Positions 5,011 through 42,178 of a stretch of 48,360 bases of DNA are shown in pieces (positions within the stretch are counted from its first letter, which is position 1; every line of letters starts with the position of its first letter). The stretch covers positions 1 to 48,360 of the forward strand of contig LJUI01000026.1 in the NCBI GenBank assembly GCA_001303705.1, given 5' to 3'. Position numbers and translations under genes: made by a program. The DNA is from a candidate division TA06 bacterium SM23_40. GTDB taxonomy: Bacteria > LJUI01 > SM1-40. The notes beneath the pieces were generated by a model. It worked only from the letters and a program-made list of their open reading frames with translations, did not search any database and was not told the origin of the DNA.

Positions 5011-6075
5011 ATGCACACCATCCTGCTGATAGCTGTCCTTCTCCTCATGTTCGTCGGGCTCGTTGGCAGCCTGCTCCCGGTATTGCCCGGCGCCCCGCTC
5101 ATCTTCCTCGGTGCGTTCGTGTACGCCATCTTCACTCACTTCGAAAAGGTCACGTGGGGGAAGCTTCTCGGCCTCGGCGGGCTGACTGCGCTTGCCCTGG
5201 TGATCGACTACATCGCCACCGCCGTTGGAGTAAAGCGGCTCGGGGCCTCATGGTCCGGTGTGGCGGGGGCGCTCCTCGGCGCTGTGGTCGGGGGCGTTCT
5301 CATGGCCCCGGTGGGCGTGTTCCTCGCGCCGATCTGTGTGGCGATGGTCGTCATTTTCCTGTACGCAGTCTATGGGTGTGGTGAGGTGCGGCAGACGGTG
5401 AAGATGCGGTCTGCGGAGGAGGAGGAATTTCTCCGCCAGCTCGCAGTATTGAGTTCTATGCCCGAGGACTCTTCCGTATCCCGACTTCTGCTCGGGAAGG
5501 TCGAAAGAGTGTACGGGGAGCGTCGGGGATCAGGAGAGGTGCCTGCCGGGACGGGTCCATCCGCGGCCGCGGCGCCGGGAACGGACGCCGGGGCGGAGAG
5601 CGACAGGCAGGTGTCCGCGCCTCTGGAGGACGTTGTTGTCAGACTTGGAGATCTCATGGCCATAGGGCCGTTCAGGCCATTCCTCGGTCAGATGGTAGTC
5701 ATTCTCGGCTCGCCCCGGACCCGGGAGGCCGGGCCGGACGAGGAGGGGAGACCGGTATTCCTGGCTGAGGAGATCGTTCTCGCCGAGGAGATGTTTGCCA
5801 TTGACTTCGTCGAGGAGACACTGGCGTTGACGATCAGCAACCACTTCTCCCGGCCGCTCCGCGAGCTTCGCGTTCTTTACCCCGGCGGCGGACATCTCGT
5901 TCCGGAGGGCCCGCCTGCACGACACCTCTCGGTTCTGTTACCGGGTGCCAAGGCGCTCGCGTCCTGGCGCCTCCGGGCCGTCGGTGAAGTGAAACGGATG
6001 CCGTCCCTCCGCTTTCTCACCCTGGAACCCCCTGCAAATCTCCATCTGGCCCTTCATCACCTGCACGGGAAGTAG
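5011..6075 (+). CDS. DUF456-family membrane domain fused in frame to an unknown soluble region
   Basis: N-terminus GLVGSLLPVLPGAPLIFLG..DYIATAVGVKRLGASWSG is typical DUF456; C-terminal ~230 aa not recognised. Confidence 0.7.
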   Translation: MHTILLIAVLLLMFVGLVGSLLPVLPGAPLIFLGAFVYAIFTHFEKVTWGKLLGLGGLTALALVIDYIATAVGVKRLGASWSGVAGALLGAVVGGVLMAPVGVFLAPICVAMVVIFLYAVYGCGEVRQTVKMRSAEEEEFLRQLAVLSSMPEDSSVSRLLLGKVERVYGERRGSGEVPAGTGPSAAAAPGTDAGAESDRQVSAPLEDVVVRLGDLMAIGPFRPFLGQMVVILGSPRTREAGPDEEGRPVFLAEEIVLAEEMFAIDFVEETLALTISNHFSRPLRELRVLYPGGGHLVPEGPPARHLSVLLPGAKALASWRLRAVGEVKRMPSLRFLTLEPPANLHLALHHLHGK

Positions 6076-6117
6076 ATCGAGAACCCGGGTACTTCCCCGA
6101 ACCAGGGCCATTCGCTG

Positions 6118-6146
6118 TTGACTTGTTTCCGCCCGTGTGCTACAAT
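6118..6146 (+). promoter_or_regulatory. sigma70-type promoter of ssrA
   Basis: TTGACT-17 bp-TACAAT with extended -10 TG, 50 nt upstream of tmRNA. Confidence 0.8.
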
Positions 6147-6196
6147 ATCAGTGTAGTTGGCTGTGCACGGGAACAGGGTCGACACCGTATGTGCGT

Positions 6197-6550
6197 GGGG
6201 GCGATCGGTTGCGACGGGGACGGAAGAGATCGAGGCTGCATGCCGAGGTCCCGTCACCTCGCTAAACAGTCGGGAACTCAATAGTTGCCAACAGCAACTA
6301 CGCACTAGCCGCCTAAGAGTGGCTACGTCCGCGGCAGCCTTTGTCTGCGAGACCGCCGATGGGCGCCGCGAAAGCAGACTGGCCCTTTGTTCGGGCCCTG
6401 GGGACGGAGGGTGAGAAAGAACAGGGCTGGCCCCGCTGTGCATCCTGTGGCCGGAGGCCAGCGGGGTGAGATCAAGTAGGCCTACTAAGCATGTAGGGGC
6501 CTCCTTCGAACCGTTTCCGGACGCGGGTTCGATTCCCGCCGCCTCCACCA
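6197..6550 (+). ncRNA. ssrA: tmRNA; tag ANSNYALAA* at 6287-6316
   Basis: 5' GGGGGCG pairs with 3' CGCCTCC-ACCA including the G3-U alanine identity pair; T arm GCGGGTTCGATTCCCGC; resume codon GCC then AAC AGC AAC TAC GCA CTA GCC GCC TAA. Confidence 0.97.
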
Positions 6551-6557
6551 ACTGTTT

Positions 6558-6585
6558 GGCGTGAGCTGAAGCTCACGCCTTTGTT
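6558..6585 (+). terminator. Intrinsic terminator after ssrA
   Basis: GGCGTGAGC-TGAA-GCTCACGCC perfect 9-bp stem followed by TTTGTT. Confidence 0.8.
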
Positions 6586-6754
6586 ACCTTGTGCGACCTG
6601 CCTGCGGGATCGATTACTGTGTTTGCCCCCACAACTGGTCCTCATCTCACAGAATCACGCTCTCGTCTCATCCAACTCGCACGGTGGGTGGAATCGTCCG
6701 AGACGTGTTTTTGCGCGTTCCTAGCTCTGGCTATACTGGTCAAGAAGATTGACA

Positions 6755-6933
6755 GAGAGACCTCCGCTGGCTACAGTCGCTTTCGGCCCAACGCAATGAT
6801 TGCCCCGAGGCTTCCCTACACCTCCCGTCACCCTTCGGGGTGAGCGAGGGAAGTTGAGCTGTCCCCGGGCAGCTTCCTCGGGGCATACCATGTGAAAGCG
6901 GCTTCGTCTATGCTAGGAGAAGGGGTCTATCTC
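6755..6933 (+). ncRNA. Candidate structured ncRNA (~180 nt, rod-like with central bubble and branched tip); family not recognised
   Basis: Nested helices: 6755-6764/6922-6933; 6767-6771/6912-6916; AGTCGCTTTC (6775-84)/GAAAGCGGCT (6894-6903); TGCCCCGAGG (6801-10)/CCTCGGGGCA (6876-85); inner CTTCCCT/AGGGAAG with TCACCC-TTCG-GGGTGA, and AGCTGTC-CCCG-GGCAGCT. G-U pairs and the cUUCGg loop favour the + strand; TATACT at 6732-37. Confidence 0.55.
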
Positions 6934-7060
6934 GGTGGCGAGCTCACAGATCCAGCAGTGACATGCGATACGTTCGTGGGCGGCCGGGTTCGTCATTGTG
7001 TGCTATCGTCTCGGGAGAGATCTCTCCGCGACATCCTTCTCCCGTAAGACGGAAAGGGGA

Positions 7061-7089
7061 TTGACAAACGAGAAGACTTCATATATAGC
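7061..7089 (+). promoter_or_regulatory. sigma70-type promoter upstream of rubrerythrin
   Basis: TTGACA-17 bp-TATAGC. Confidence 0.6.
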
Positions 7090-7196
7090 AACAGTCACCC
7101 GATACGTTATCTCATCCGCGTCCGGTTTCGTACGGCAGCGCACGGACCTGACACCGCGTGCATCTCATAGCTACGGAAGCGAAACGGAGGGAAAGC

Positions 7197-7727
7197 ATGG
7201 CGAACCTGAAGGGGACGAAGACAGAGAAGAACCTGTCGGCGGCATTCGCGGGCGAGTCTAAGGCCAGAAATAAGTACACCTATTTCGCCGAGGTCGCACG
7301 CCGAGAGGGGCACCAGTACATTGCCCAGATCTTCGAAGAGACGGCAATGAACGAAATGCAGCATGCAAAGGATGAGTTCAGACTGCTGGGCGGCATAGGG
7401 GACACGGCGGCGAATCTGAAAGAAGCGATGGGAGGAGAAGATTACGAGACCGTCTCCATGTATCCTGAGTTCGCCAGGCAGGCGGAGGAAGAGGGATTCA
7501 AGGACGCCGCGATCCTGTTCAGGCAGATAGCCAGGGCCGAATCATCGCACAGAGACAGGTACAGGAAGTTGCTGGAGATGCTCGAGGGCGGGACTCTGTA
7601 CAAGAGGGAGAACCCGATACAATGGAAGTGCAGTGTGTGCGGCTACATTGTGGAAGGTACAGAGCCGCCTCGTAAGTGTCCCTGTTGTCAGTATCCGAGA
7701 GAATACTACGGGCCGGTCTGTCTGTAG
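7197..7727 (+). CDS. rbr: Rubrerythrin
   Basis: MANLKGTKTEKNLSAAFAGES; di-iron motifs EMQH and ESSH; C-terminal rubredoxin-like WKCSVCGY..CPCC; SD GGAGG. Confidence 0.95.
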   Translation: MANLKGTKTEKNLSAAFAGESKARNKYTYFAEVARREGHQYIAQIFEETAMNEMQHAKDEFRLLGGIGDTAANLKEAMGGEDYETVSMYPEFARQAEEEGFKDAAILFRQIARAESSHRDRYRKLLEMLEGGTLYKRENPIQWKCSVCGYIVEGTEPPRKCPCCQYPREYYGPVCL

Positions 7728-8049
7728 CGGAACGAATCTGAGCGTGAGCCTCAGTTCCCCGCCGAGCGGATCGGGACCGTGACAATAGATGAGCGCCTCT
7801 CGAGTCGGGGGCGATCCGTCCCCTGACTGTCGGCCGCGCGTGAGATAGCAATGAGAGAGACGCACGACATGGTACTCTATATGGGCTACTCGCACCGGTC
7901 AAATCCTTTTGCGGCTTTGCGCGATGAAGTAGCCGTCGCACGGCCAGGCCCGAGAGTGTTGGGTGGCATCAGCGTTGAGGTAGCCAGAGAGCGGCAGCCG
8001 GGCGAGCATCTGCACCCCCACCTTCGGGATCATGGCGATTCGCTCGGGA

Positions 8050-9703: not shown

Positions 9704-9732
9704 TTGACACCGGGGCCCGATTCCCATACGAT
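9704..9732 (+). promoter_or_regulatory. sigma70-type promoter facing the DUF523/DUF1722 gene
   Basis: TTGACA-17 bp-TACGAT. Confidence 0.6.
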
Positions 9733-11089: not shown

Positions 11090-11542
11090 TCACTCGCTGA
11101 TGCGCAGCTCGACCACGTCCTGGAATCTGGTAACGAGGTAATAGGTTTCCACGTTCACCCGCAGGAAGGCACAGGCGGGGGAGGCGATGAACTCGCGCAT
11201 AGACGGGTGCTTCCGGAGATAGAGCTGCGCGAGCGCGCCTTTCGCCGCTTCAGGAACCGGTTCAGCCCTACCCATGATGGTTGCGGCTGAAGCTTCCTGG
11301 AAATCCGATTCTTCGTTGGCACGATTATCGACGAGAAGAGCTACCCGAGCATCTGCCTCCATATTGGCGAACTTGCGGGTCGAACGGCCTGTCGCGAAGA
11401 GCACGTGTTTCAGATCATCCGTGGCCGCGAATGCCACGAGGTTCGCATAGGGTCCAGTCTGCCCGTGTGTCGCGAGCACTGCCAGGCGCTGCCCCGCAAG
11501 CAGCTTCCTCACGGTCTCCTTCAATCTCAGGATGTCTTTCAC
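11090..11542 (-). CDS. Pyridoxamine 5'-phosphate oxidase-like (FMN split-barrel) protein
   Basis: GTG at 11542 overlaps the bcp stop; LAVLATH..PYANLVAFA..LFATGRSTRKFANM..RVALLVDNR. Confidence 0.88.
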   Translation of the reverse strand: MKDILRLKETVRKLLAGQRLAVLATHGQTGPYANLVAFAATDDLKHVLFATGRSTRKFANMEADARVALLVDNRANEESDFQEASAATIMGRAEPVPEAAKGALAQLYLRKHPSMREFIASPACAFLRVNVETYYLVTRFQDVVELRISE

Positions 11543-11889
11543 ATTGCCTCCAGAGCCTGGCGAGCCCTGGGTACGGTCTCCGTGGGGCTGACCTTGTACC
11601 AGGCCTCGATGATCTTTCCCTTCTCGTCGATCAGGAAGGAGGAGCGGATGATACCCATGTGCTTCTTCCCGTACATCGACTTCTCGCCCCACACACCATA
11701 GGCTTTTGCCACCTTGTCATCGGGATCGGAGAGGAGCGGGAAGCCGAGCCCGTGCTTTGTATCGAAGTTTCGCTGTCTCTCCGGTGTGTCGGGGCTGATC
11801 TCCACCACAGCGACGCTTGCCCCCGCCAGATCTTCGCGGGCGTCCCTGACGCTGCACGCCTGTTTTGTACAGCCCGGGGTGTCTGCCGC
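11539..11889 (-). pseudogene. bcp: 5'-truncated BCP/PrxQ peroxiredoxin
   Basis: ADTPGCTKQACSVRD..ISPD..FPLLSDPD..YGVWGEKSMYGK..GIIRSSFLIDEKG is clear BCP. The expected ~40 N-terminal residues (GDxAPDF...VVLYFYP) are absent and there is no plausible start with SD. Confidence 0.75.
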
Positions 11890-11911
11890 CCGCCCCTCTG
11901 CGGAGAGGTCG

Positions 11912-12178
11912 CTAGCACGGGGAGACCGGGGGCATGCGCTCGTACGTCGATCCACGGCGTCGGTACAGGGCCTCGACCTCGACGCCTGCCCCTGCCAGCA
12001 GATCGAGCGCTTGCTTCAGGACTGCACCGGACAGAGCGATGGCGATCCCGCAGTCGGAACTGAGATCACGCGGGGTGGGTATGATCTCGTGGGCGAGACC
12101 GTGTTCCTTGAACACGTGTTCCGCCCTCATCACGTGATGGACTGAGACGAAGTTAATGACCGAATCGGGTCGATCCAT
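11912..12178 (-). CDS. DUF3343 domain protein (putative Se/S carrier)
   Basis: FVSVHHVMRAEHVFK..IIPTPRDLSSDCGIAI signature; GGAG 7 nt before ATG 12178. Confidence 0.88.
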   Translation of the reverse strand: MDRPDSVINFVSVHHVMRAEHVFKEHGLAHEIIPTPRDLSSDCGIAIALSGAVLKQALDLLAGAGVEVEALYRRRGSTYERMPPVSPC

Positions 12179-12262
12179 GCGTGATCTCCGGGACCTCATG
12201 ATCCGATGATAGATGCCGGCGCACGCCCGCGCTCGCGATGAGATCAGCCGCCCCCGCCCGTG

Positions 12263-13414
12263 TCAGCCGGGTGGGGTCTGGTTCTGCGCAAGATCGGCCA
12301 CCGCCTCCAGGATCGACTCGACGTCGTCAGCCGTGTTGAACGGCCCCAGCGAGATCCGTATCGTCCCGGCGGGGAAGGTCCCGATCGTGCGGTGGGCGGA
12401 GGGGGCGCAGTGGAGTCCGGGCCTGACGAGGATGGCGTGCTCTCGATCGAGAATGTGTGCCGCATCTGAGGGCGAGAGGCCATCGATCGTGATCGATGCT
12501 GTCGCCAGCTGTCGCTCGGGGTCGGCGGTGCCGAAGAGCGTCACACCCGGGATGCCGCGCAGTCCGTCGGCGAGCCGCGAGAAGAGTGCCAGTTCGTGCT
12601 CGCGGATCGACATGACACTGCGCTCCGTGACGTATCGCGTGGCGGCGAGAAGGCCGGCGATGCCGACTGCGTTGGGAGTGCCCGCTTCGTGGAGATCCGG
12701 CAGGAAGTCGGGTTGTTCCTCCCGTTCGGATCTGCTGCCCGTCCCCCCGCGCACGAGCGGTTCCAGATCGATGCCCTCTCCAATGCAGAGGCCCCCGATG
12801 CCCGGCGGCCCAAGCAGACCCTTGTGGCCTGAGAACGCATACAGGCAGGGGCCCAGCCGGGAGAGGTCTACGGGAAGAGATCCGATACTCTGGGCGCCAT
12901 CGATGAGGAGTGGAACCGGACCGATTTCCCTGCTCACCTCCGCAACTGGCTGGACCGTGCCCGTGACGTTTGATGCGTGCATCACGGCAACGAGCCGGGT
13001 CCGGTCGGTCACGAGGTCACCGAGCTGCCGGGGATCGACGAGACCGGAGCCGTCGGTCTGGGCCACACGGACTCGCACCCCACGTTCCCCCTCCAGATGT
13101 CTGAGTGGCCGCATGACTGCGTTGTGTTCCATAGACGAGGCGATGACCTCGTCGCCATGGCGGAGCAGACCGAGAAGGGCGGCGTTGATGCCGAAGGTTG
13201 CGCCCGGGGTGAAGATCATCCGGGAGGAATCGTCCATTCCCAGGAGGGCAGCAAGCGTCTCCCGGGCCTCGAAGACGATGCGGGCAGCCTCGATCGAGAG
13301 GCGGTGGGCCGATCGGCCGGGAGAGGCACCGATCCGATCGAGGTAGTCCCTCATCGCGTCAGCCACACCCGGCGCCTTCGGGAATGAAGTAGCCGCGTTG
13401 TCGGCATAGATCAT
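12263..13414 (-). CDS. Cysteine desulfurase / selenocysteine lyase family (class V PLP enzyme)
   Basis: IYADNAATSFPK, HASNVTG, DGAQ, SGHK (PLP Lys), EAGTPN, RPGLHCAP (catalytic Cys). Confidence 0.93.
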   Translation of the reverse strand: MIYADNAATSFPKAPGVADAMRDYLDRIGASPGRSAHRLSIEAARIVFEARETLAALLGMDDSSRMIFTPGATFGINAALLGLLRHGDEVIASSMEHNAVMRPLRHLEGERGVRVRVAQTDGSGLVDPRQLGDLVTDRTRLVAVMHASNVTGTVQPVAEVSREIGPVPLLIDGAQSIGSLPVDLSRLGPCLYAFSGHKGLLGPPGIGGLCIGEGIDLEPLVRGGTGSRSEREEQPDFLPDLHEAGTPNAVGIAGLLAATRYVTERSVMSIREHELALFSRLADGLRGIPGVTLFGTADPERQLATASITIDGLSPSDAAHILDREHAILVRPGLHCAPSAHRTIGTFPAGTIRISLGPFNTADDVESILEAVADLAQNQTPPG

Positions 13415-16013: not shown

Positions 16014-16509
16014 TGGCGTCGGCGGATGGGTCCAGGCGACACAGTTCACCCTGCCGAATCCCGGTTACTTCGCCGCGTTCCGCGTCGGCGTTGACGCCGA
16101 CCACAATGGGTATCCTGATATCGTCCTCGTCGACGAGGAAGGGTCCTGGATCAACCGGACCAATCATCTGCGATTCTTCAAGGAGGCATCATCGCCTCAG
16201 TCCCTCTCGGTACGGCCCACGTATCCGCGGGGGGGTGAGGTCTTCATTATCGGCTCGGTCAGGTTCATCGACTGGGTGAGCGGCGTACCCGGACAAGAGG
16301 CGTTAGCCGTGAAGCTTGAGCTCTCGACTGATGGCCCGGGTGGGCCGTGGACTACGATCGCCGATGGGCTGCCGAACAACGGGCGCTATCAGTGGACCGT
16401 TGCAGGGAACCAGTCGCTCGATTGCTACATCCAGTACACGGTCGTGGCCGGCCAGGATACTGCGACCGCGGTGACCGCGATGCCGTTCACAATCGCCTCC
16501 GCCGACTGA
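16009..16509 (+). pseudogene. Out-of-frame C-terminal part of the FG-GAP protein (last repeat plus Ig-like domain)
   Basis: The +1 frame continues DGVGGWVQ..DADHNGYPDIVLV..PRGGEVF..IDW..LSTDGPGGPWTTIA..NNGRYQWTV; it has no start or SD of its own. Confidence 0.75.
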
Positions 16510-16828
16510 GAGGAGGTCCCCTGTAACTGGTGAGAGGAGGTTCTCCAGAAACATAATATAGGTATGCACTGATATAGCATGTGAGTGCTCGGGTTGTGAG
16601 ATCGACGCTCTCCCGGGCCTCCCCTGTCAGCTAATCGGGAGGCCTTCGGGGAGAGCGTCGATTCTCTGTCGGATATGCGGCCGTGACAAGGTGCCGCGTG
16701 GGGGCATCCTCTCCCGGGCGGCAGAGTCACCTGTCTCTGCGCGGGGAGGCGGTCAGTGTACAGGCTCTGGCCCCCGTAAAGACTGAGGTATACGGCGCGA
16801 GGTGATCGGTCCGGCGAGGGGAAACCAC

Positions 16829-16857
16829 TTGACACCTCAGAGTAGCCTCCCTAACAT
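16829..16857 (+). promoter_or_regulatory. sigma70-type promoter without an intact downstream gene
   Basis: TTGACA-17 bp-TAACAT. Confidence 0.55.
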
Positions 16858-27008: not shown

Positions 27009-27153
27009 CCCCTGCCCTTTTTCGATCATCCCCGCTCCATGTCCCGACTGCCGGTGCGCCGCTCTGTTGCGCTGCCTCACGGCAGCCGAGTTCGAGTGCC
27101 GGCCCGGGGATCCTCGAGCCGCGGACCGGCATCAGGCTCTCCGGCGCCCCGTC

Positions 27154-27182
27154 TTGACAAACGCTTCCCCCGAACATATAAT
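27154..27182 (+). promoter_or_regulatory. Consensus sigma70 promoter of the prfB operon
   Basis: TTGACA-17 bp-TATAAT, perfect match. Confidence 0.9.
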
Positions 27183-27205
27183 GAGTTGAGAGCAAAGGAG
27201 GGGCT

Positions 27206-28325
27206 ATGGAGATCGGTGGATTGCGTGACACCCTCAGCGAGCTCCGGGCTCGGATGGAGACTCTGCGGGGGTTTCTTTGACCTGGAGACGAGGCAGCGCG
27301 AGATGCGACGTCTCGAGCAGGAGATGGCCCGGGCCGGGTTCTGGGATGACCGCACGCGGGCCCAGGAGACGCTCGAGACGTTCAATGCTCACAAGGGCTG
27401 GATCGAGGCCTGGCAGAAACTAGAGGGCCAGGCTGACGACATCTCTGTGCTCGTCGAACTGGTTGAAGAGGACGACGAGGCCACCAGGAAAGAGATCGAG
27501 CAGGGCCTGGAGCGTCTCAGGGAGGGTATCGAGGATATCGAGCTGAGGCACATGCTCAGGGGGGAGGACGATGAGCGTGATGCGATCCTCGCGATCCATC
27601 CCGGGGCGGGTGGAACTGAGTCCCAGGACTGGGCGGGTATGCTCTTCCGTATGTATCTGCGGTGGGCAGAACGGAGGGGCTACCAGCATCGCATGCTCGA
27701 CTTCCAGCCCGGCGAGGAGGCGGGGATCAAGAACGCCACCATCGAGCTCGTGGGACGCTATGCATATGGATACCTCAAAGCAGAGAACGGCGTGCATCGC
27801 CTGGTCCGTATCTCGCCGTTCGATGCCAGTCACCGCCGACACACCTCCTTTGCCTCGATCTTCGTGACGCCTGCTATCGAGGACGATATCGAGGTCGACA
27901 TCAGGGACAGCGATCTCAGGGTCGACACCTTCCGCTCTTCCGGAGCAGGCGGTCAGCACGTCAACAAGACCGACTCGGCCGTGCGCATCACGCACATTCC
28001 TACCGGCATCGTAGCGACATGTCAAAATGAGCGCTCACAGCATCAGAATCGCGCGAATGCCATGCTCATCCTCCGTTCCCGGCTGTATCAGTACTACCGG
28101 GCCCGTGAGGATGAGCGCCTTCAGGCCCTCGAGGACGAGAAGACCGAGATCGCCTGGGGCAACCAGATCCGGTCCTATGTCTTCCACCCCTACAACTTGG
28201 TCAAGGACCACCGGACCAAACTCGAGGCAGGCAACACGGGCGCTGTGATGGATGGGGCGATCGATGAGTTCATCAGGGCGTACCTGATCCAGACAGGCTC
28301 GCCCGCGGCCACTGACGCTGCGTGA
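27206..28325 (+). CDS. prfB: Peptide chain release factor 2 with programmed +1 frameshift
   Basis: ATG 27206 after AAAGGAGG; 24 codons to CTT TGA C (27275-27281); the +1 frame continues DLETRQRE..; GAGGTESQDW, RISPFD (SPF), GAGGQHVN (GGQ). Confidence 0.97.
27266..27281 (+). promoter_or_regulatory. RF2 autoregulatory frameshift cassette
   Basis: Internal SD-like GGGGG followed by TTT CTT TGA C. Confidence 0.92.
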
Positions 28326-32008: not shown

Positions 32009-32029
32009 GATGCGGTGAGGAAGAGCCCA

Positions 32030-32584
32030 ATGAAATGCGATAACTGTGGAGAACGGGAAGCGACGGTTGAGTACCGAGAGATGCGGGATGGGAAGACAAC
32101 CACCTATCATTTCTGCAAGGACTGCGCCAAAGAGAAGGGGCTCGAGTCGACTCCCCCCAAGACTCAGTACTCAATAAGCGACATACTGGTAAGCATGGTC
32201 GATGGATCCGGGACATCCGAGACAACGATAGAGAGCGAACTGCGGTGTCCCAAGTGTGCGCTCAGCTATGCCGAGTTCGGGCGGGGAGGGAAGCTCGGGT
32301 GTCCCGCGTGCTACACTGCATTTCGCGGGCAACTCGAACCGCTCCTGCGGCGCATTCACGGCGCAACAAGCCACGTGGGTAAAACGGTCAAGGCGGCGAG
32401 CGCAACGAGCAAGACGAAGCGGGAGATACGCCAGCTCGAACGGGCCCTGCAGCAGGCTGTCCAGAGAGAAGCCTTCGAAGATGCAGCGGAGATCCGGGAC
32501 AAGATCCGGACGCTGGAGGCAGGACTCATCGTCCCACAATCGAATACGAAGTCGGAAGTATCGGGAGCATCGGAGGGCGAATGA
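32030..32584 (+). CDS. mcsA: McsA (CxxC motifs + UVR domain)
   Basis: MKCDNC, FCKDCA, CPKC, LGCPACY..F..L..IHG..HVGK, EAFEDAAEIRDKI. Confidence 0.93.
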   Translation: MKCDNCGEREATVEYREMRDGKTTTYHFCKDCAKEKGLESTPPKTQYSISDILVSMVDGSGTSETTIESELRCPKCALSYAEFGRGGKLGCPACYTAFRGQLEPLLRRIHGATSHVGKTVKAASATSKTKREIRQLERALQQAVQREAFEDAAEIRDKIRTLEAGLIVPQSNTKSEVSGASEGE

Positions 32585-33636
32585 TGGACCTCGATGGCAT
32601 GGTGGGGCAGGCGCCGAAGTGGCTCGAGGGGTCGGGGCCGACGCCTGAGATCGTACTCTCCTCACGGGTGAGACTGGCCCGGAATCTGGCTGCCTATCCA
32701 TTCGCCCAGCGGGCAAAGGCGAGTCAGCTAGGAGAGATCGTCTCCGAGGTGGAGCGGGCCGCGATGGCGAACGAGCTGTTCGAGGAGGCGCTGGTTGCGG
32801 AGATCAAGGGGCTGTCGGACATCGACAGGCGCTTCCTTCTCGAGCGGCACCTTATCAGCCCGGAGATGGCGACGCAGCGACGAGATGGAGCGCTCATCGT
32901 CGCAGACGGTGAGAGTGTCAGCATAATGATCAATGAGGAGGATCACCTGCGCCTCCAGTCGATTTGCTCCGGCCTGCAGTTGTCTGATGCGTATCGCGCG
33001 ATCGACGGAGTGGATGATGGGCTGGAGGAGACGCTCCAGTATGCATTCCTGGACAAGTGGGGATACCTCACCGCCTGCCCCACCAACACGGGCACGGGCA
33101 TGCGGGCCTCCGTCCTCATTCACCTCCCTGCGCTAGTCCATACAAAGGAGATCGACAAAGCATTGCGTGGGGCAAGTCAGGTCGGTCTCGCGGTCCGGGG
33201 GTTCTATGGAGAGGGCACCGAGGTGAAGGGGAACCTGTTTCAGATATCGAATCAGACTACCCTTGGCCGGAGTGAGGAGGACAGCATCGAGGCCCTCGAC
33301 CGCGTGACGCGCCAGATCATCGACTACGAGAAGAGACAGCGGGAGGTGCTCATACAGAGTGCACCCCACCAGGTCGAAGATAAGATCTGGAGGGCGTACG
33401 GCATTCTGACGAATGCGCGAATCCTCAGCTCCGATGAGGTGATGTCGATCTCATCCGCAGTGCGGCTGGGGATCGGTCTGGGATTGATCAACACGCTTCC
33501 GCTTACTGTATTGAACGAGCTCGTCATTTTCACTCAGCCAGCTCATCTTCAGCGGTACTACGGGGCCGAAATGGAGGCCTCGGAGCGTGACACAAAACGA
33601 GCAGAGTTCGTCCGGGAGAGCGTCATGGGGCGCTGA
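32581..33636 (+). CDS. mcsB: Protein arginine kinase McsB
   Basis: IVLSSRVRLARN, INEEDHLR, YLTACPTNTGTGMRAS, FQISNQTTLG. Confidence 0.96.
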   Translation: MMDLDGMVGQAPKWLEGSGPTPEIVLSSRVRLARNLAAYPFAQRAKASQLGEIVSEVERAAMANELFEEALVAEIKGLSDIDRRFLLERHLISPEMATQRRDGALIVADGESVSIMINEEDHLRLQSICSGLQLSDAYRAIDGVDDGLEETLQYAFLDKWGYLTACPTNTGTGMRASVLIHLPALVHTKEIDKALRGASQVGLAVRGFYGEGTEVKGNLFQISNQTTLGRSEEDSIEALDRVTRQIIDYEKRQREVLIQSAPHQVEDKIWRAYGILTNARILSSDEVMSISSAVRLGIGLGLINTLPLTVLNELVIFTQPAHLQRYYGAEMEASERDTKRAEFVRESVMGR

Positions 33637-33761
33637 CCTGCCGGACGATTTTCTCCTGGTTCCGAAAAGAGAGGGTCGCTGTGCGAGGACGCGTATCGAG
33701 GAGCCGCCCACGAGGAGCGGCGCCGAGGACGTCGCGAGACCCGCTACCCGGAGGACGATAG

Positions 33762-36254
33762 ATGCAAGACAGATTTACTGAGCGCGTGAAGAGAGTGATG
33801 TATCTCGCCCGAGAAGAAGCCGCGAGGCTGCAGCACGACTATATCGGGACCGAGCATCTCTTGTTAGGGCTGATCAGGGAGGGGGAGGGTGTTGCGGCGT
33901 TGGTGTTGATGAACCTGGGCCTCGATCTCGAGACCCTTCGGCAGGCGGTCGAGGACGTCGCTCCCGCCGGCGGTGGTACGCTGACGATCAGCGAGATCCC
34001 GTTGAATCCGAACGCCAAGAGGTCGCTCGAGCTCGCCGTCGAGGAGGCACGCTCCCTGGGGCATAGCTACATCGGGACCGAGCATCTCCTTCTCGGACTT
34101 CTCAAAGAGGGCGAGGGCGTCGCGTCGATGGTTCTCAAGAAACTGGGGGTGAGCCTCGAACAGGTCAAGGAGGAGACGGTTAACCTCCTGGGTGGAGCGA
34201 TGAAGGAGTTTCATCCCCATCCTCAGCCGCAGCAGCTGGCCGGCAAGGAGAAGTCGAAGACCGCGGCGCTCGACTACTTCTGTCGGGATCTGACGCAACT
34301 GGCGATGGAAGACAAGTTGGATCCGATTATCGGCCGGGAGCAGGAAATAGAGCGGGTCGTCCAGGTTCTGAGCCGCAGGAAGAAGAACAATCCTGTCCTT
34401 ATTGGAGAGCCGGGTGTGGGGAAGACAGCCATCGTCGAGGGTCTCGCCCAGCGCATCGTCGAGGGCAACGTGCCGGAGGTCCTCAAGGAGAAGCGGGTCA
34501 TGACGCTCGATATGGCGGCCGTCGTTGCCGGAACGAAGTATCGCGGTCAGTTCGAGGAAAGACTGAAGGCGGTGCTCAACGAGATCAGGCAGTCGGACGA
34601 GATCGTTCTGTTCATCGACGAGCTCCACACGATCGTCGGTGCGGGCGCGGCAGAGGGGGCGATCGATGCCTCTAACATGCTGAAGCCGTCTCTCGCACGT
34701 GGCGAACTGCAGTGCATAGGCGCAACGACTCTCGAGGAGTATCGCAAACACATCGAAAAGGACGGCGCGCTCGAGCGCCGCTTCCAGACGATCATGGTGG
34801 ATCCTCCGTCTGTTGAGGAGACCGTTGACATCCTGAAGGGGCTGCGTGACAGGTACGAGGATCATCATCGGGTGCGCTACTCGGACGAGGCGCTCGAGGA
34901 GTCGGCACGTCTCTCTGATCGATACATCTCCGATCGGTTCCTGCCCGACAAGGCGATTGATGTCATCGACGAGGCAGGATCGCGCGTGAAACTCTCGGCC
35001 ATGACGACGCCCCCCGAGCTCGTCGGGCTGGAGCACGAGCTCGAAGACGTCGTGAAAGAGAAGCGCCTCGCTATCGAGAGGCAGGAGTTCGAGCGTGCTG
35101 CGGCGCTGCGGGATCGCCAGAAGAAGATCAACCGGGAGCTGAAGCACCTGCGCAAGGAGTGGACCGAGAAGCGGATGGAGGCGAGACACGAAGTCAGTGC
35201 TGAGGACATTGCCTTCATAATCTCGCGCTGGACGGGGATCCCGATTCTCAGGCTAGAGGAACGCGAATCGACGCGGCTGTTGAAGATGGAGGCCGAGCTG
35301 CGCAGGCGGATCGTCGGCCAGGATGAGGCACTTCAGGCGATCTCCCGTGCGATCCGCCGAACGCGGGCGGGATTGAAGGATCCGCGCCGACCGATCGGTT
35401 CGTTTCTCTTCCTCGGACCGACCGGTGTGGGGAAGACCGCTCTGGCGCAGGCCCTCGCCGTCTTCCTGTTCGAGGACGAGAGCGCACTCGTGAGAGTCGA
35501 TATGTCGGAATACATGGAGAAGTTTGCCGTCTCGCGTCTCATCGGGGCGCCCCCGGGGTATGTGGGGTATGAAGAGGGAGGCCAGCTGACTGAGAAGGTG
35601 AGACGGAAGCCGTACTCCGTCGTCCTCCTCGACGAGATCGAGAAAGCCCATCCCGATGTCTTCAACCTCCTTCTCCAGATATTCGAGGACGGCCACCTGA
35701 CCGATAGCTTCGGCCGCCGGGTCAACTTCAAGAACACCGTGCTGATCATGACCTCGAACATCGGGGCGAGGGAGATCAAGAAGGGACAGAGCCTCGGATT
35801 CAGGAAGACCGATCCGGCCCAAACCTACGAGGCGATGAAGGATACTCTGACGACCGAGCTCAAGAAAGTATTCAATCCCGAATTCCTCAACCGGGTGGAC
35901 GAGACCGTCATCTTCCGGGCGCTCGGTAAGGAGGAAATGGCCAAGATCGTCGAGATCATCCTCGACGATGTGCGGTCTCGACTGGCAGAAAAGAAGATGA
36001 AGCTGGTCCTCACTCCAGAGGCTCAGGAGCTCCTGGTGAATGAGGGGTTCGATCCCACGTTTGGGGCCCGGCCTCTGAAGCGCGCGATCCAGCGGCTCAT
36101 CGAGGATCCTCTGTCGGAAGAGCTACTCCGCGGCAGATTCACTGAAGGGTGTACCATCAAAGTTGAGCGTTGCGAGGACCGGCTTGCGTTTGTCGAGGAT
36201 CGACCGATGGCGATCAGTGGGACGACGTCCTCCAACGGTTTGCCTCTATTCTAG
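33762..36254 (+). CDS. clpC: ATP-dependent Clp protease ATPase ClpC
   Basis: Two Clp-N repeats ([10 protein letters not shown]), [11 protein letters not shown] middle domain ([11 protein letters not shown]), [12 protein letters not shown] ClpP-docking loop. Confidence 0.96.
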
Positions 36255-39851: not shown

Positions 39852-40894
39852 ATGAAAGTGAATCTTGGGGAGATAGCGCAGCTCACCGAGGGAACGCTGA
39901 TCGGTGATGCGTCCGTCCAGATCACCGGTGTCGCCGGCATAGAGGACGCGGGCGAGGGAGACATCACATTCATCGGTCATCCGCGCTACGCGTCCTTTCT
40001 CCATACCACAGGTGCTTCTGCGATCATCGTTGCGCGCGAGATCCCCGATGCGCCGAAGCCGCTCATTGTCGTGGCACAGCCATATCTCGCGCTGGCGCAA
40101 GTTCTCGAGGTGTTCGCCGGGTCCAGGCCCGAGCCGAAGGGGGTCGTCGATTCCACAGCGGTCGTCTCTCAGAGCGCAACGCTCGGCGCGGATGTCTCGG
40201 TCGGAGCCTATGCGGTGATCGAGGACGGCGCCAGCATCGGCTCCAACACCATCATCTCTCCCCTTGTATACGTCGGCAGAGGAGCGAGCATCGGAGACGA
40301 CTGCGTTATTCATCCGATGACGGTCGTGCGAGAGGGCGTAACGCTCGGCGACCGTGTTATCGTACATGCTCATGCCGTGATCGGGAGCGACGGTTTCGGG
40401 TACGCTCAAGAGGGGCAGTCCCACCGGAGGATCCCCCAGATAGGAACGGTCATCGTCGAGGATGATGTGGACGTCGGGGCCGGAGTGACGATCGACCGGG
40501 CCACGCTGGGGGCAACGAGGATCGGGCGCGGCACAAAGATAGACAATCTCGTGCAGATCGGGCACAATGTGACTGTGGGCGAGGAATCGATCATCGTCGC
40601 CCAGGTCGGCATCTCAGGGAGCACTGAGATAGGGAAGCGCGTCATTCTCGCCGGGCAAGCGGGCCTGGTGGGGCATATCAAGGTAGGTGATGGGGCGGTC
40701 GTCGGGGCGCAGGCGGGTGTGACGAAATCTGTGGCGCCGGGGGAGGTCGTCTCCGGATACCCCGCTCGTTCTCACCAGGCGGCGTCGAGAGTGTACGCAT
40801 GCATGCAGCACCTCCCAGATCTGCTCAAGCGTGTCAAGCGGCTGGAGCAGAGGCTGGGAGAGTTGGAGAGCGAGCACCAGGGCGAGAAGGGCTG

Positions 40895-40895
<1 letters not shown>
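39852..40895 (+). CDS. lpxD: UDP-3-O-acyl-glucosamine N-acyltransferase
   Basis: Hexapeptide repeats, [29 protein letters not shown]. Confidence 0.96.

Positions 40896-42178
<1,283 letters not shown>

What the first reader, a model, noticed from the sequence alone, without database searches (positions are those of the whole stretch)
6709..6935. Orphan ~180-nt highly structured RNA candidate between ssrA and rubrerythrin
Seen: a non-coding gap folds into one nested structure with two 10-bp helices (6775-84/6894-6903, one G-U; 6801-10/6876-85, perfect) separated by a 16+8-nt asymmetric bubble. It also has a ~30-nt interrupted closing stem and a tip branching into a cUUCGg hairpin and a second 7-bp hairpin. 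The wobble pairs and UUCG loop work only on the + strand. A TATACT -10 box lies ~18 nt upstream, after the ssrA terminator, and rbr has its own promoter downstream, so this looks like an independent transcript. Known: a ~180-nt rod with a central bubble is the architecture of 6S RNA. Inference: I see no 6S, SRP, RNase P or riboswitch primary motifs, so it may be a divergent 6S-like RNA-polymerase decoy or an undescribed ncRNA class.
Basis: partly seen in the sequence, partly recalled or inferred. Interest (0 to 1): 0.75.

Follow-up and report, generated by a model that had tools for sequence, protein, structure and literature searches.

The report
Promoter-driven Y-shaped RNA fold, not 6S
Between the tmRNA gene and a rubrerythrin gene lies a compact, very stable Y-shaped RNA fold just after a strong promoter; it is probably transcribed, does not look like 6S RNA, and could not be tested for conservation.

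Summary
The structured core is real. The 85 nt at 6801-6885 fold into a three-way junction (33 pairs, cUUCGg hairpin) with z=-4.63 against shuffles. It ranks among the three most stable places in the 48-kb window.

The proposed 180-227-nt 6S-like rod is not supported:
- The whole span folds no better than shuffles (z=-1.36).
- No Rfam family matches, 6S included, even at E<=10.
- The tip is branched.
Its -10 box sits in the 5' arm of the outer helix, so transcription would start near 6785, inside the supposed rod.

Seven such promoters occur in the window against 0.9 expected, so this one is probably real.

No terminator and no C-rich Rho site follow it. The fold is therefore most likely the 5' domain of a transcript running on to rubrerythrin, or a small RNA cut from that transcript.

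The gap shows no coding signal, no second copy and no mobile-element match. Conservation and covariation remain untested, because my single genome scan was too broad and returned no close relatives.

Interest is modest.

The parts
6197..6550 (+). tmRNA gene (ssrA), tag ANSNYALAA; upstream neighbour, not part of the element
   Evidence: Rfam RF00023, 190.6 bits; ARAGORN
6558..6579 (+). Intrinsic terminator of ssrA (9-bp stem, then TTTGTT). It isolates the element from ssrA transcription.
   Evidence: inverted repeat I1
6732..6737 (+). The -35 is weak (at most 3 of 6 by my reading of the sequence), and the scan did not report it.
   Evidence: sequence; absent from the scan output
6749..6777 (+). 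Sigma70-type promoter TTGACA-17 nt-TACAGT (10 of 12). The start site is predicted near G6785, by inference from the usual spacing.
   Evidence: 7 such sites in the window vs 0.9 expected; same TTGACA-17-TACnnT pattern as the ssrA promoter
6775..6784 (+). It is probably not transcribed from the 6749 promoter.
   Evidence: I3, 90%
6785..6903 (+). Structured domain as transcribed from the predicted start. Alternative closing pairs 6785-89/6898-6903 and 6792-95/6891-94 enclose the Y core. z=-3.79 and MFE equals centroid.
6801..6885 (+). Y-shaped three-way-junction core, 33 base pairs, GC 0.68. P2 is 6801-10/6876-85. P3 is 6811-17/6847-53, continued by 6826-33/6838-46. P4 is 6856-63/6868-75.
6818..6825 (+). 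8-nt asymmetric internal loop ACACCUCC, the largest unpaired stretch of the core. Its CCUCC resembles an anti-Shine-Dalgarno sequence; the likeness to the 16S rRNA 3' end is recalled, not tested.
   Evidence: structure; pair list
6834..6837 (+). UUCG tetraloop closed by a C-G pair
6904..7060 (+). Spacer with no significant structure, no terminator-like site, C/G ratio below 1, and GC 0.50-0.57
7061..7089 (+). rbr-proximal promoter-like site: TTGACA, then TATATA at 15 nt or TATAGC at 17 nt. It fails the scan's rules.
   Evidence: sequence; not listed
7197..7727 (+). Rubrerythrin CDS with Shine-Dalgarno GGAGGG at 7186-7191; the downstream gene that a read-through transcript would reach
   Evidence: Pfam PF02915 and PF21349; sequence

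Best explanation
A roughly 120-nt structured RNA domain on the + strand (6785-6903, with a Y-shaped core at 6801-6885) forms the 5' end of a transcript started by the sigma70-type promoter at 6749-6777. Nothing in the sequence stops that transcript, so it most likely continues about 410 nt into rubrerythrin as a distal-promoter leader.

Shown: the fold, the promoter match, the absence of a terminator or rut-like stretch, and the absence of coding signal.

Inferred: the start site at about 6785; that the fully paired 5' end protects the RNA from 5'-end-dependent decay, so that it works like a 5' stabiliser; and that the domain may be trimmed out as a stable fragment. It is not a 6S RNA.
For: Fold:
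- 85-nt core z=-4.63, 0 of 200 shuffles as good.
- 6785-6905 z=-3.79, with the first five bases paired.
- Only 9 of 13794 window-wide 85-nt windows are as stable.
- GC is 0.68 in the core against 0.50-0.58 in the flanks.

Promoter:
- 10 of 12 match with 17-nt spacing.
- Seven sites of at least 10 of 12 occur in the window, against a mean of 0.9 and a maximum of 5 in 200 Markov simulations.
- 4 of the 7 lie wholly outside a generous coding mask that covers 87% of the window. The other 3 lie at the 5' edge of maximal ORFs.
- Its TACAGT -10 fits the TACnnT form seen at 4 of the 7 sites, the ssrA promoter and this site among them.

Read-through:
- No terminator-like site on + between 6785 and rbr.
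- C/G ratio is 0.62-0.87 across 6835-7062.
- Same orientation as rbr.
- Leaders of about 270-330 nt also follow the promoters at 9704 and 16829.

Non-coding:
- GC3 of 0.47-0.62 in 12 gap ORFs, against 0.69-0.80 in 10 genes.
- No Pfam or NCBIfam hit.
Against: - No homologue was obtained, so there is no conservation or covariation evidence at all.
- No expression data are available.
- The start site is only predicted.
- The fold lies 290 nt from the rbr ribosome-binding site, and no expression platform is visible.
- The rest of the putative leader is unstructured: z=-0.96, +0.91, and -1.10 for 6785-7200.
- rbr has a plausible promoter of its own at 7061. That would leave the distal promoter free to serve a separate RNA.
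- A fold of similar stability occurs inside the prfB coding sequence, so chance folds of this strength do exist in this DNA.
Confidence: 0.4

Rival explanations
1. An independent or processed small RNA of about 120 nt, transcribed from the 6749 promoter and matured to the base of the 6785/6903 helix. It would act in trans through its exposed C-rich internal loop (ACACCUCC) by pairing with Shine-Dalgarno-like GGAGG sequences, rbr's among them.
For: - It has its own strong promoter.
- It is a compact domain with paired 5' and 3' ends, and MFE equals centroid.
- The downstream spacer is unstructured and lower in GC.
- rbr has its own promoter-like site at 7061.
- The largest unpaired stretch of the core contains CCUCC, and the rbr Shine-Dalgarno is GGAGGG at 7186-7191.
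- From recall: E. coli 6S RNA is likewise cut from a longer transcript that has no terminator of its own.
Against: - There is no terminator-like site and no rut-like stretch after the fold, although the adjacent ssrA has a canonical terminator.
- Loop-to-SD complementarity is only 5 bp and would fit any strong Shine-Dalgarno sequence.
- I noticed the motif after the fact.
- There are no homologues and no expression data.
Confidence: 0.25
2. A chance fold or non-functional GC-rich remnant in a spacer. It may be transcribed, but it has no role of its own.
For: - An equally stable fold lies inside the prfB coding sequence.
- With 139-nt windows the candidate is only z=-2.46; 43 of 8038 windows are as low, spread over about a dozen loci.
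- The minus strand folds almost as well.
- No family match.
- No homologue found by any route tried.
Against: - It is one of the three most stable loci in 48 kb, it lies in non-coding DNA, and a probable real promoter points into it from directly upstream.
- By my rough estimate, such a promoter would fall within 60 nt on the right strand of a given non-coding spot about 3-4% of the time.
- Three independent nested helices and a cUUCGg loop are more typical of RNA than of random palindromes.
- The homologue searches were uninformative, because no close relative was sampled.
Confidence: 0.25
3. A divergent 6S-like decoy of RNA polymerase.
For: If transcription starts upstream of 6775, two 10-bp helices flank a 16+8-nt loop. 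The size would then be about 130-180 nt. No canonical 6S occurs elsewhere in the 48-kb window, but the rest of the genome was not seen.
Against: - No 6S model hit at E<=10.
- The full span is not stable beyond chance.
- The apex is branched.
- The 16-nt side of the 'bubble' partly self-pairs in the MFE structure.
- The -10 box of the best promoter sits in the outer helix arm.
- The downstream gene is rbr, not the folate-related gene that I recall being linked to 6S in many proteobacteria.
Confidence: 0.04
4. A DNA-level element: a MITE or REP-like repeat, or a relic of an island integrated at ssrA.
For: Nested inverted repeats are present. The position next to ssrA is a common integration site; I saw only the search listing, which included papers on islands at ssrA.
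Against: - No second copy in the window: exact-pattern searches allowing 3 mismatches, blastn, and the covariance model.
- No repeat of the ssrA 3' end within the window.
- No match in the plasmid or phage collections.
- The surroundings are housekeeping genes.
- No flanking direct repeat was reported.
Confidence: 0.04

Closest known systems
6S RNA (Rfam RF00013; E. coli ssrS)
   Same: A non-coding, GC-rich, highly paired RNA of roughly similar size with no terminator of its own. From recall: E. coli 6S is cut out of a transcript that continues into the downstream gene, which is what I propose as one option here.
   Different: - No covariance-model match.
- No stable long closing stem.
- The apex is a three-way junction.
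- From the predicted start, the internal loop is a small 5+5 loop, not a large open-promoter mimic.
- The neighbouring gene differs.
5'-terminal stabiliser stem-loops of bacterial mRNAs (ompA and aprE leaders; recalled, not searched)
   Same: A stable structure that pairs the very first transcribed bases, at the head of a long leader.
   Different: Those are simple hairpins, whereas this is a 119-nt branched domain. The start site here is only predicted, and no stability data exist.
C-rich-loop regulatory sRNAs such as RsaE/RoxS (recalled)
   Same: An unpaired C-rich motif presented on a stable scaffold and complementary to Shine-Dalgarno sequences. The neighbouring gene is linked to redox or oxidative stress.
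   Different: - No sequence or model similarity; the Rfam scan found nothing.
- No terminator.
- Only one C-rich loop.
Three-way-junction riboswitch aptamers (purine, c-di-GMP-I; recalled)
   Same: A Y-shaped fold of about 85 nt upstream of a gene on the same strand.
   Different: - No Rfam match.
- The junction has almost no unpaired bases (0, 2 and 0 nt) from which to form a pocket.
- No expression platform; the fold lies 290 nt from the ribosome-binding site.

Membership tests
6S RNA | Scores against the Rfam 6S covariance models | tested here: not met
   cmscan of 6540-7210 with permissive filters at E<=10 gave 2 matches in all (mir-3154, E=1; PhotoRC-I, E=2.3), neither of them 6S. The whole window at E<=0.1 gave only tmRNA and tRNA.
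6S RNA | Long closing stem formed by the 5' and 3' ends, giving a rod of about 180 nt | tested here: not met
   6709-6935 folds with z=-1.36; 22 of 200 shuffles are as good. The -10 box of the best promoter lies in the outer helix arm.
6S RNA | Large, open central bubble that mimics an open promoter | tested here: inconclusive
   A 16+8-nt loop exists only if the RNA starts upstream of 6775, and it partly self-pairs in the MFE structure. From a start at 6785 the loop is 5+5 nt.
6S RNA | Unbranched apical stem-loop (feature recalled) | tested here: not met
   The apex is a three-way junction with two hairpins.
6S RNA | Binds the sigma70 holoenzyme and templates product RNAs | not testable with these tools
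   Needs co-purification with RNA polymerase and small-RNA sequencing.
MITE / REP-like repeat | Many dispersed copies | tested here: inconclusive
   There is one copy in the 48-kb window, and none in 89 loci from other bacteria. The rest of the genome was not available.
MITE / REP-like repeat | Terminal inverted repeats flanked by a target-site duplication | tested here: not met
   Inverted repeats I2 and I3 are present. None of the 5 direct-repeat families in 6540-7200 flanks them.
Intrinsic terminator | GC-rich hairpin followed by a run of U | tested here: not met
   The scan of 6000-7800 reports only the ssrA terminator on the + strand. P4 is followed by UUCCUCGGGGCAUACC.
Stand-alone sRNA gene | Own promoter and own 3' end signal | tested here: inconclusive
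   A promoter is present. No terminator-like or rut-like signal is present.
Known riboswitch or cis-regulatory leader | Match to a curated family | tested here: not met
   No match among the 4227 Rfam models.
Small protein gene | Codon-position GC bias of this genome, and homologues | tested here: not met
   GC3 is 0.47-0.62 in 12 gap ORFs, against 0.69-0.80 in 10 genes. There were no Pfam or NCBIfam hits at or above a curated cut-off. No homologue was found for 2 of 2 ORFs searched.

The most novel reading that the evidence does not exclude
A previously undescribed class of ~120-nt Y-shaped stable RNA encoded next to ssrA. It would be released from the 5' end of the rubrerythrin transcript, much as 6S is released from its precursor. 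Its exposed 16S-like CCUCC loop would pair with Shine-Dalgarno sequences, so that the rbr promoter makes a trans-acting translational regulator and the oxidative-stress protein from one transcript.
Probability: 0.1. Interest if true: 0.55.

Novelty: new member of a known kind. Interest (0 to 1): 0.3.

Why it matters
If real, this would be one more unclassified structured RNA from a poorly studied diderm lineage. It sits at the head of an oxidative-stress gene and beside the tmRNA gene. It could show how such organisms stabilise or regulate rubrerythrin mRNA, or it could add a new small RNA.

It does not bear on 6S biology. Its value depends entirely on conservation, which is still untested, so the present interest is modest.

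Tried and rejected
1. Genome scan for relatives. I used a degenerate pattern for the tmRNA tag (ANxNYALAA). The best tmRNA matches were partial, at 76-85% (L083, L051, L003). blastn of the gap against all 119 loci gave only chance hits of 14-25 nt. No locus shows synteny: rbr and 5 neighbouring proteins searched by tblastn gave 2 unrelated hits.

2. A covariance model built from the single sequence (R1) was searched over the window plus 89 of the 119 loci. The 80 loci with flanks and 9 short ones were included; 30 short loci were left out. Apart from the element itself, there were 7 weak hits at E 0.26-7.7.

3. Spurious-ORF trick. ORFs overlapping the fold (6721-6891 on the minus strand, 6589-6843 on the plus strand) were searched in the protein collection, with no candidates. 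The length limits stated by the tool apply.

4. The listing of cluster members for 10 ORFs and neighbours was not sent, because the database was switched off.

5. Plasmid and phage collections, distant blastn of 6581-7196: no match.

6. Pseudogene or small-protein reading: rejected.

7. Island at ssrA: no repeat of the ssrA 3' end in the window.

8. Duplicated promoter regions. The 6742 and 7054 sites share only GATTGACA plus a few bases; the local alignment score was reached by 3% of shuffles.

9. Structure in the rest of the leader: none significant.

10. Literature. There were 3 full-text searches (one search failed on a bad term). I saw listings only and read no paper. Nothing described an RNA between ssrA and rbr or a structured rubrerythrin leader.

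11. I did not run the HMMER representative search, structure prediction or complex prediction. None of them bears on a non-coding element.

Full report
**Setting.** The window carries a full-length tmRNA gene at 6197-6550 on the + strand (Rfam 190.6 bits; tag ANSNYALAA). A canonical terminator hairpin follows at 6558-6579. A rubrerythrin gene lies at 7197-7727, also on the + strand (Pfam Rubrerythrin plus rubredoxin-like domain). The finding sits in the 646-nt gap between them. The wider window holds housekeeping genes of a diderm bacterium (polA, coaE, prfB, lysS, clpC, bamA and the lpx cluster). There is nothing mobile nearby.

6801-10/6876-85 is perfect, and 6775-84/6894-6903 has one U-G. 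The apex branches into a cUUCGg hairpin and a second hairpin.

The significance depends on which span is taken:
- The full 6709-6935 span is not better than dinucleotide shuffles: z=-1.36 on +, with 22 of 200 shuffles as good, and z=-0.96 on the minus strand.
- The 139-nt core 6770-6908 gives z=-3.96 on + (0 of 200) and -2.72 on the minus strand.
- The 85-nt three-way junction 6801-6885 gives z=-4.63 on +, with MFE equal to centroid, and -3.28 on the minus strand.

These sub-windows were picked after looking, so I also compared them with the window's own sequence, using MFE regressed on GC.
- With 139-nt windows the candidate is z=-2.46, and 43 of 8038 windows are as low.
- With 85-nt windows it is z=-3.87, and 9 of 13794 are as low.
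- Those 9 belong to two other loci. One is an intergenic hairpin at about 16.6 kb. The other is a hairpin on the minus strand at about 28.06 kb, inside the prfB coding sequence.

The core is therefore among the three most stable places in 48 kb. One comparably stable fold is almost certainly accidental, so stability alone does not establish function. Strand evidence from the fold is weak, because only 2 of 33 core pairs are G-U.

The consensus scan reports TTGACA-17 nt-TACAGT at 6749-6777 on the + strand, a 10 of 12 match.

Across the whole window there are 7 sites with at least 10 of 12 matches. The mean in 200 first-order Markov simulations was 0.9 and the maximum was 5.
- One of the seven is the ssrA promoter at 6118.
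- One is a 12 of 12 site ahead of prfB.
- 4 of the 7 lie wholly outside a deliberately generous coding mask covering 87% of the window. The other 3 sit at the 5' edge of maximal ORFs whose true starts are uncertain.
- 4 of the 7, including ssrA's and this one, have a TACnnT -10 box.

This promoter is therefore probably real. With the usual spacing, which is an inference, transcription starts near G6785. The RNA would then lack that arm, and the 16+8-nt 'central bubble' would disappear.

From 6785 the RNA still folds well. 6785-6905 has z=-3.79, MFE equals centroid, and alternative closing pairs 6785-89/6898-6903 and 6792-95/6891-94 surround the same Y core, so the first transcribed bases are paired.

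**What follows the fold.**
- No terminator-like site lies on the + strand between 6785 and rbr.
- The C/G ratio is 0.62-0.87 over 6835-7062, so there is no obvious Rho loading region.
- The remaining leader is not significantly structured.
- A second promoter-like site lies at 7061: TTGACA with an A/T-rich -10 region. It fails the scan's rules.
- Leaders of about 270-330 nt also seem to follow the promoters at 9704 and 16829.

**What it is not.**
- Not a known RNA family. Nothing in the gap matches Rfam 15 even at E<=10; the two listed matches are noise. Nothing but tmRNA and tRNA is found in the whole window at E<=0.1.
- Not coding. GC3 is 0.47-0.62 in 12 gap ORFs, against 0.69-0.80 in 10 genes. 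There are no Pfam or NCBIfam hits, and no protein homologues for the two ORFs that overlap the fold.
- Not visibly repeated or mobile. There is a single copy in the window, no repeat of the ssrA 3' end, and no plasmid or phage match.

**Homologues.** This is the weak point. Neither blastn nor a single-sequence covariance model found the element in those loci. That is uninformative about conservation. Covariation, the decisive test, could not be run.

**Mechanism.** I commit to the following reading. The fold is an RNA on the + strand, made from the 6749 promoter, and it forms the paired 5' domain of a transcript that by default runs on into rbr.

The most economical role for a fully paired 5' end is protection from 5'-end-dependent decay. 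This is inferred by analogy with recalled 5' stabilisers.

A close rival is that the domain is released as a stable ~120-nt RNA. Its largest unpaired stretch, ACACCUCC at 6818-6825, contains CCUCC, which is complementary to GGAGG. The rbr Shine-Dalgarno is GGAGGG at 7186-7191. That is only 5 bp, and I noticed it after the fact.

A chance fold remains a serious possibility.

The 6S reading fails four sequence-testable features: the model match, the closing stem, the unbranched apex and the neighbouring gene. On the central bubble it is inconclusive.

**Verdict.** The 6S interpretation is not supported. The element is a plausible but unproven new structured RNA of ordinary kind, either a leader domain or a small RNA. 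Interest is 0.3.

Noticed in passing
window 16577-16690 (+): This is the most stable local fold of the whole window (85-nt z down to -5.2). It is a long imperfect hairpin of about 26 bp in the gap between an ORF ending at 16509 and a 10 of 12 promoter at 16829. A weak 9 of 12 promoter lies at 16530-16557 just upstream. There is no Rfam family, only miRNA-type noise.
   Followed up: partly
window 28036-28150 (-): A hairpin of stability similar to the candidate lies inside the prfB (release factor 2) coding sequence. It served as an internal example of a probably accidental fold.
   Followed up: partly
window 27039-28325 (+), promoter 27154-27182: A perfect 12 of 12 consensus promoter lies inside the maximal prfB ORF, and the PCRF domain starts only at residue 87. 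The true start must be downstream. The programmed frameshift usual for RF2 (recalled) was not checked.
   Followed up: no
window promoters at 6118, 6749, 9704, 13980(-), 14000, 16829, 27154: Strong promoters in this DNA follow TTGACA-17/18-TAnnnT. 4 of the 7 have a TACnnT -10 box, which may be a lineage preference.
   Followed up: partly
window 40799-42178 (+): A single ORF combines an LpxC domain with a FabA/FabZ-like dehydratase domain, so it is a fused LpxC-FabZ.
   Followed up: no
window 32015-36254 (+): A UVR-motif protein, an ATP:guanido phosphotransferase and a ClpC-type ATPase lie in a row. This mcsA-mcsB-clpC-like arrangement occurs here in a bacterium that has outer-membrane genes (bamA, lpxA-D).
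   Followed up: no
window 5011-6075 (+): In the protein just upstream of ssrA, DUF456 covers only residues 21-114 of 354. The long Ala/Gly/Pro-rich remainder matches no Pfam family.
   Followed up: no
window 6889-6894 (+): A start-stop pair, ATGTGA, lies immediately 3' of the Y core, within the alternative closing helix. No Shine-Dalgarno sequence precedes it, so it is probably meaningless.
   Followed up: no
window 11539-13414 (-): A peroxiredoxin (AhpC/TSA), a putative Se/S carrier protein and a class-V aminotransferase (cysteine desulfurase-like) cluster about 4 kb from rbr. This suggests a local concentration of redox-stress genes.
   Followed up: no
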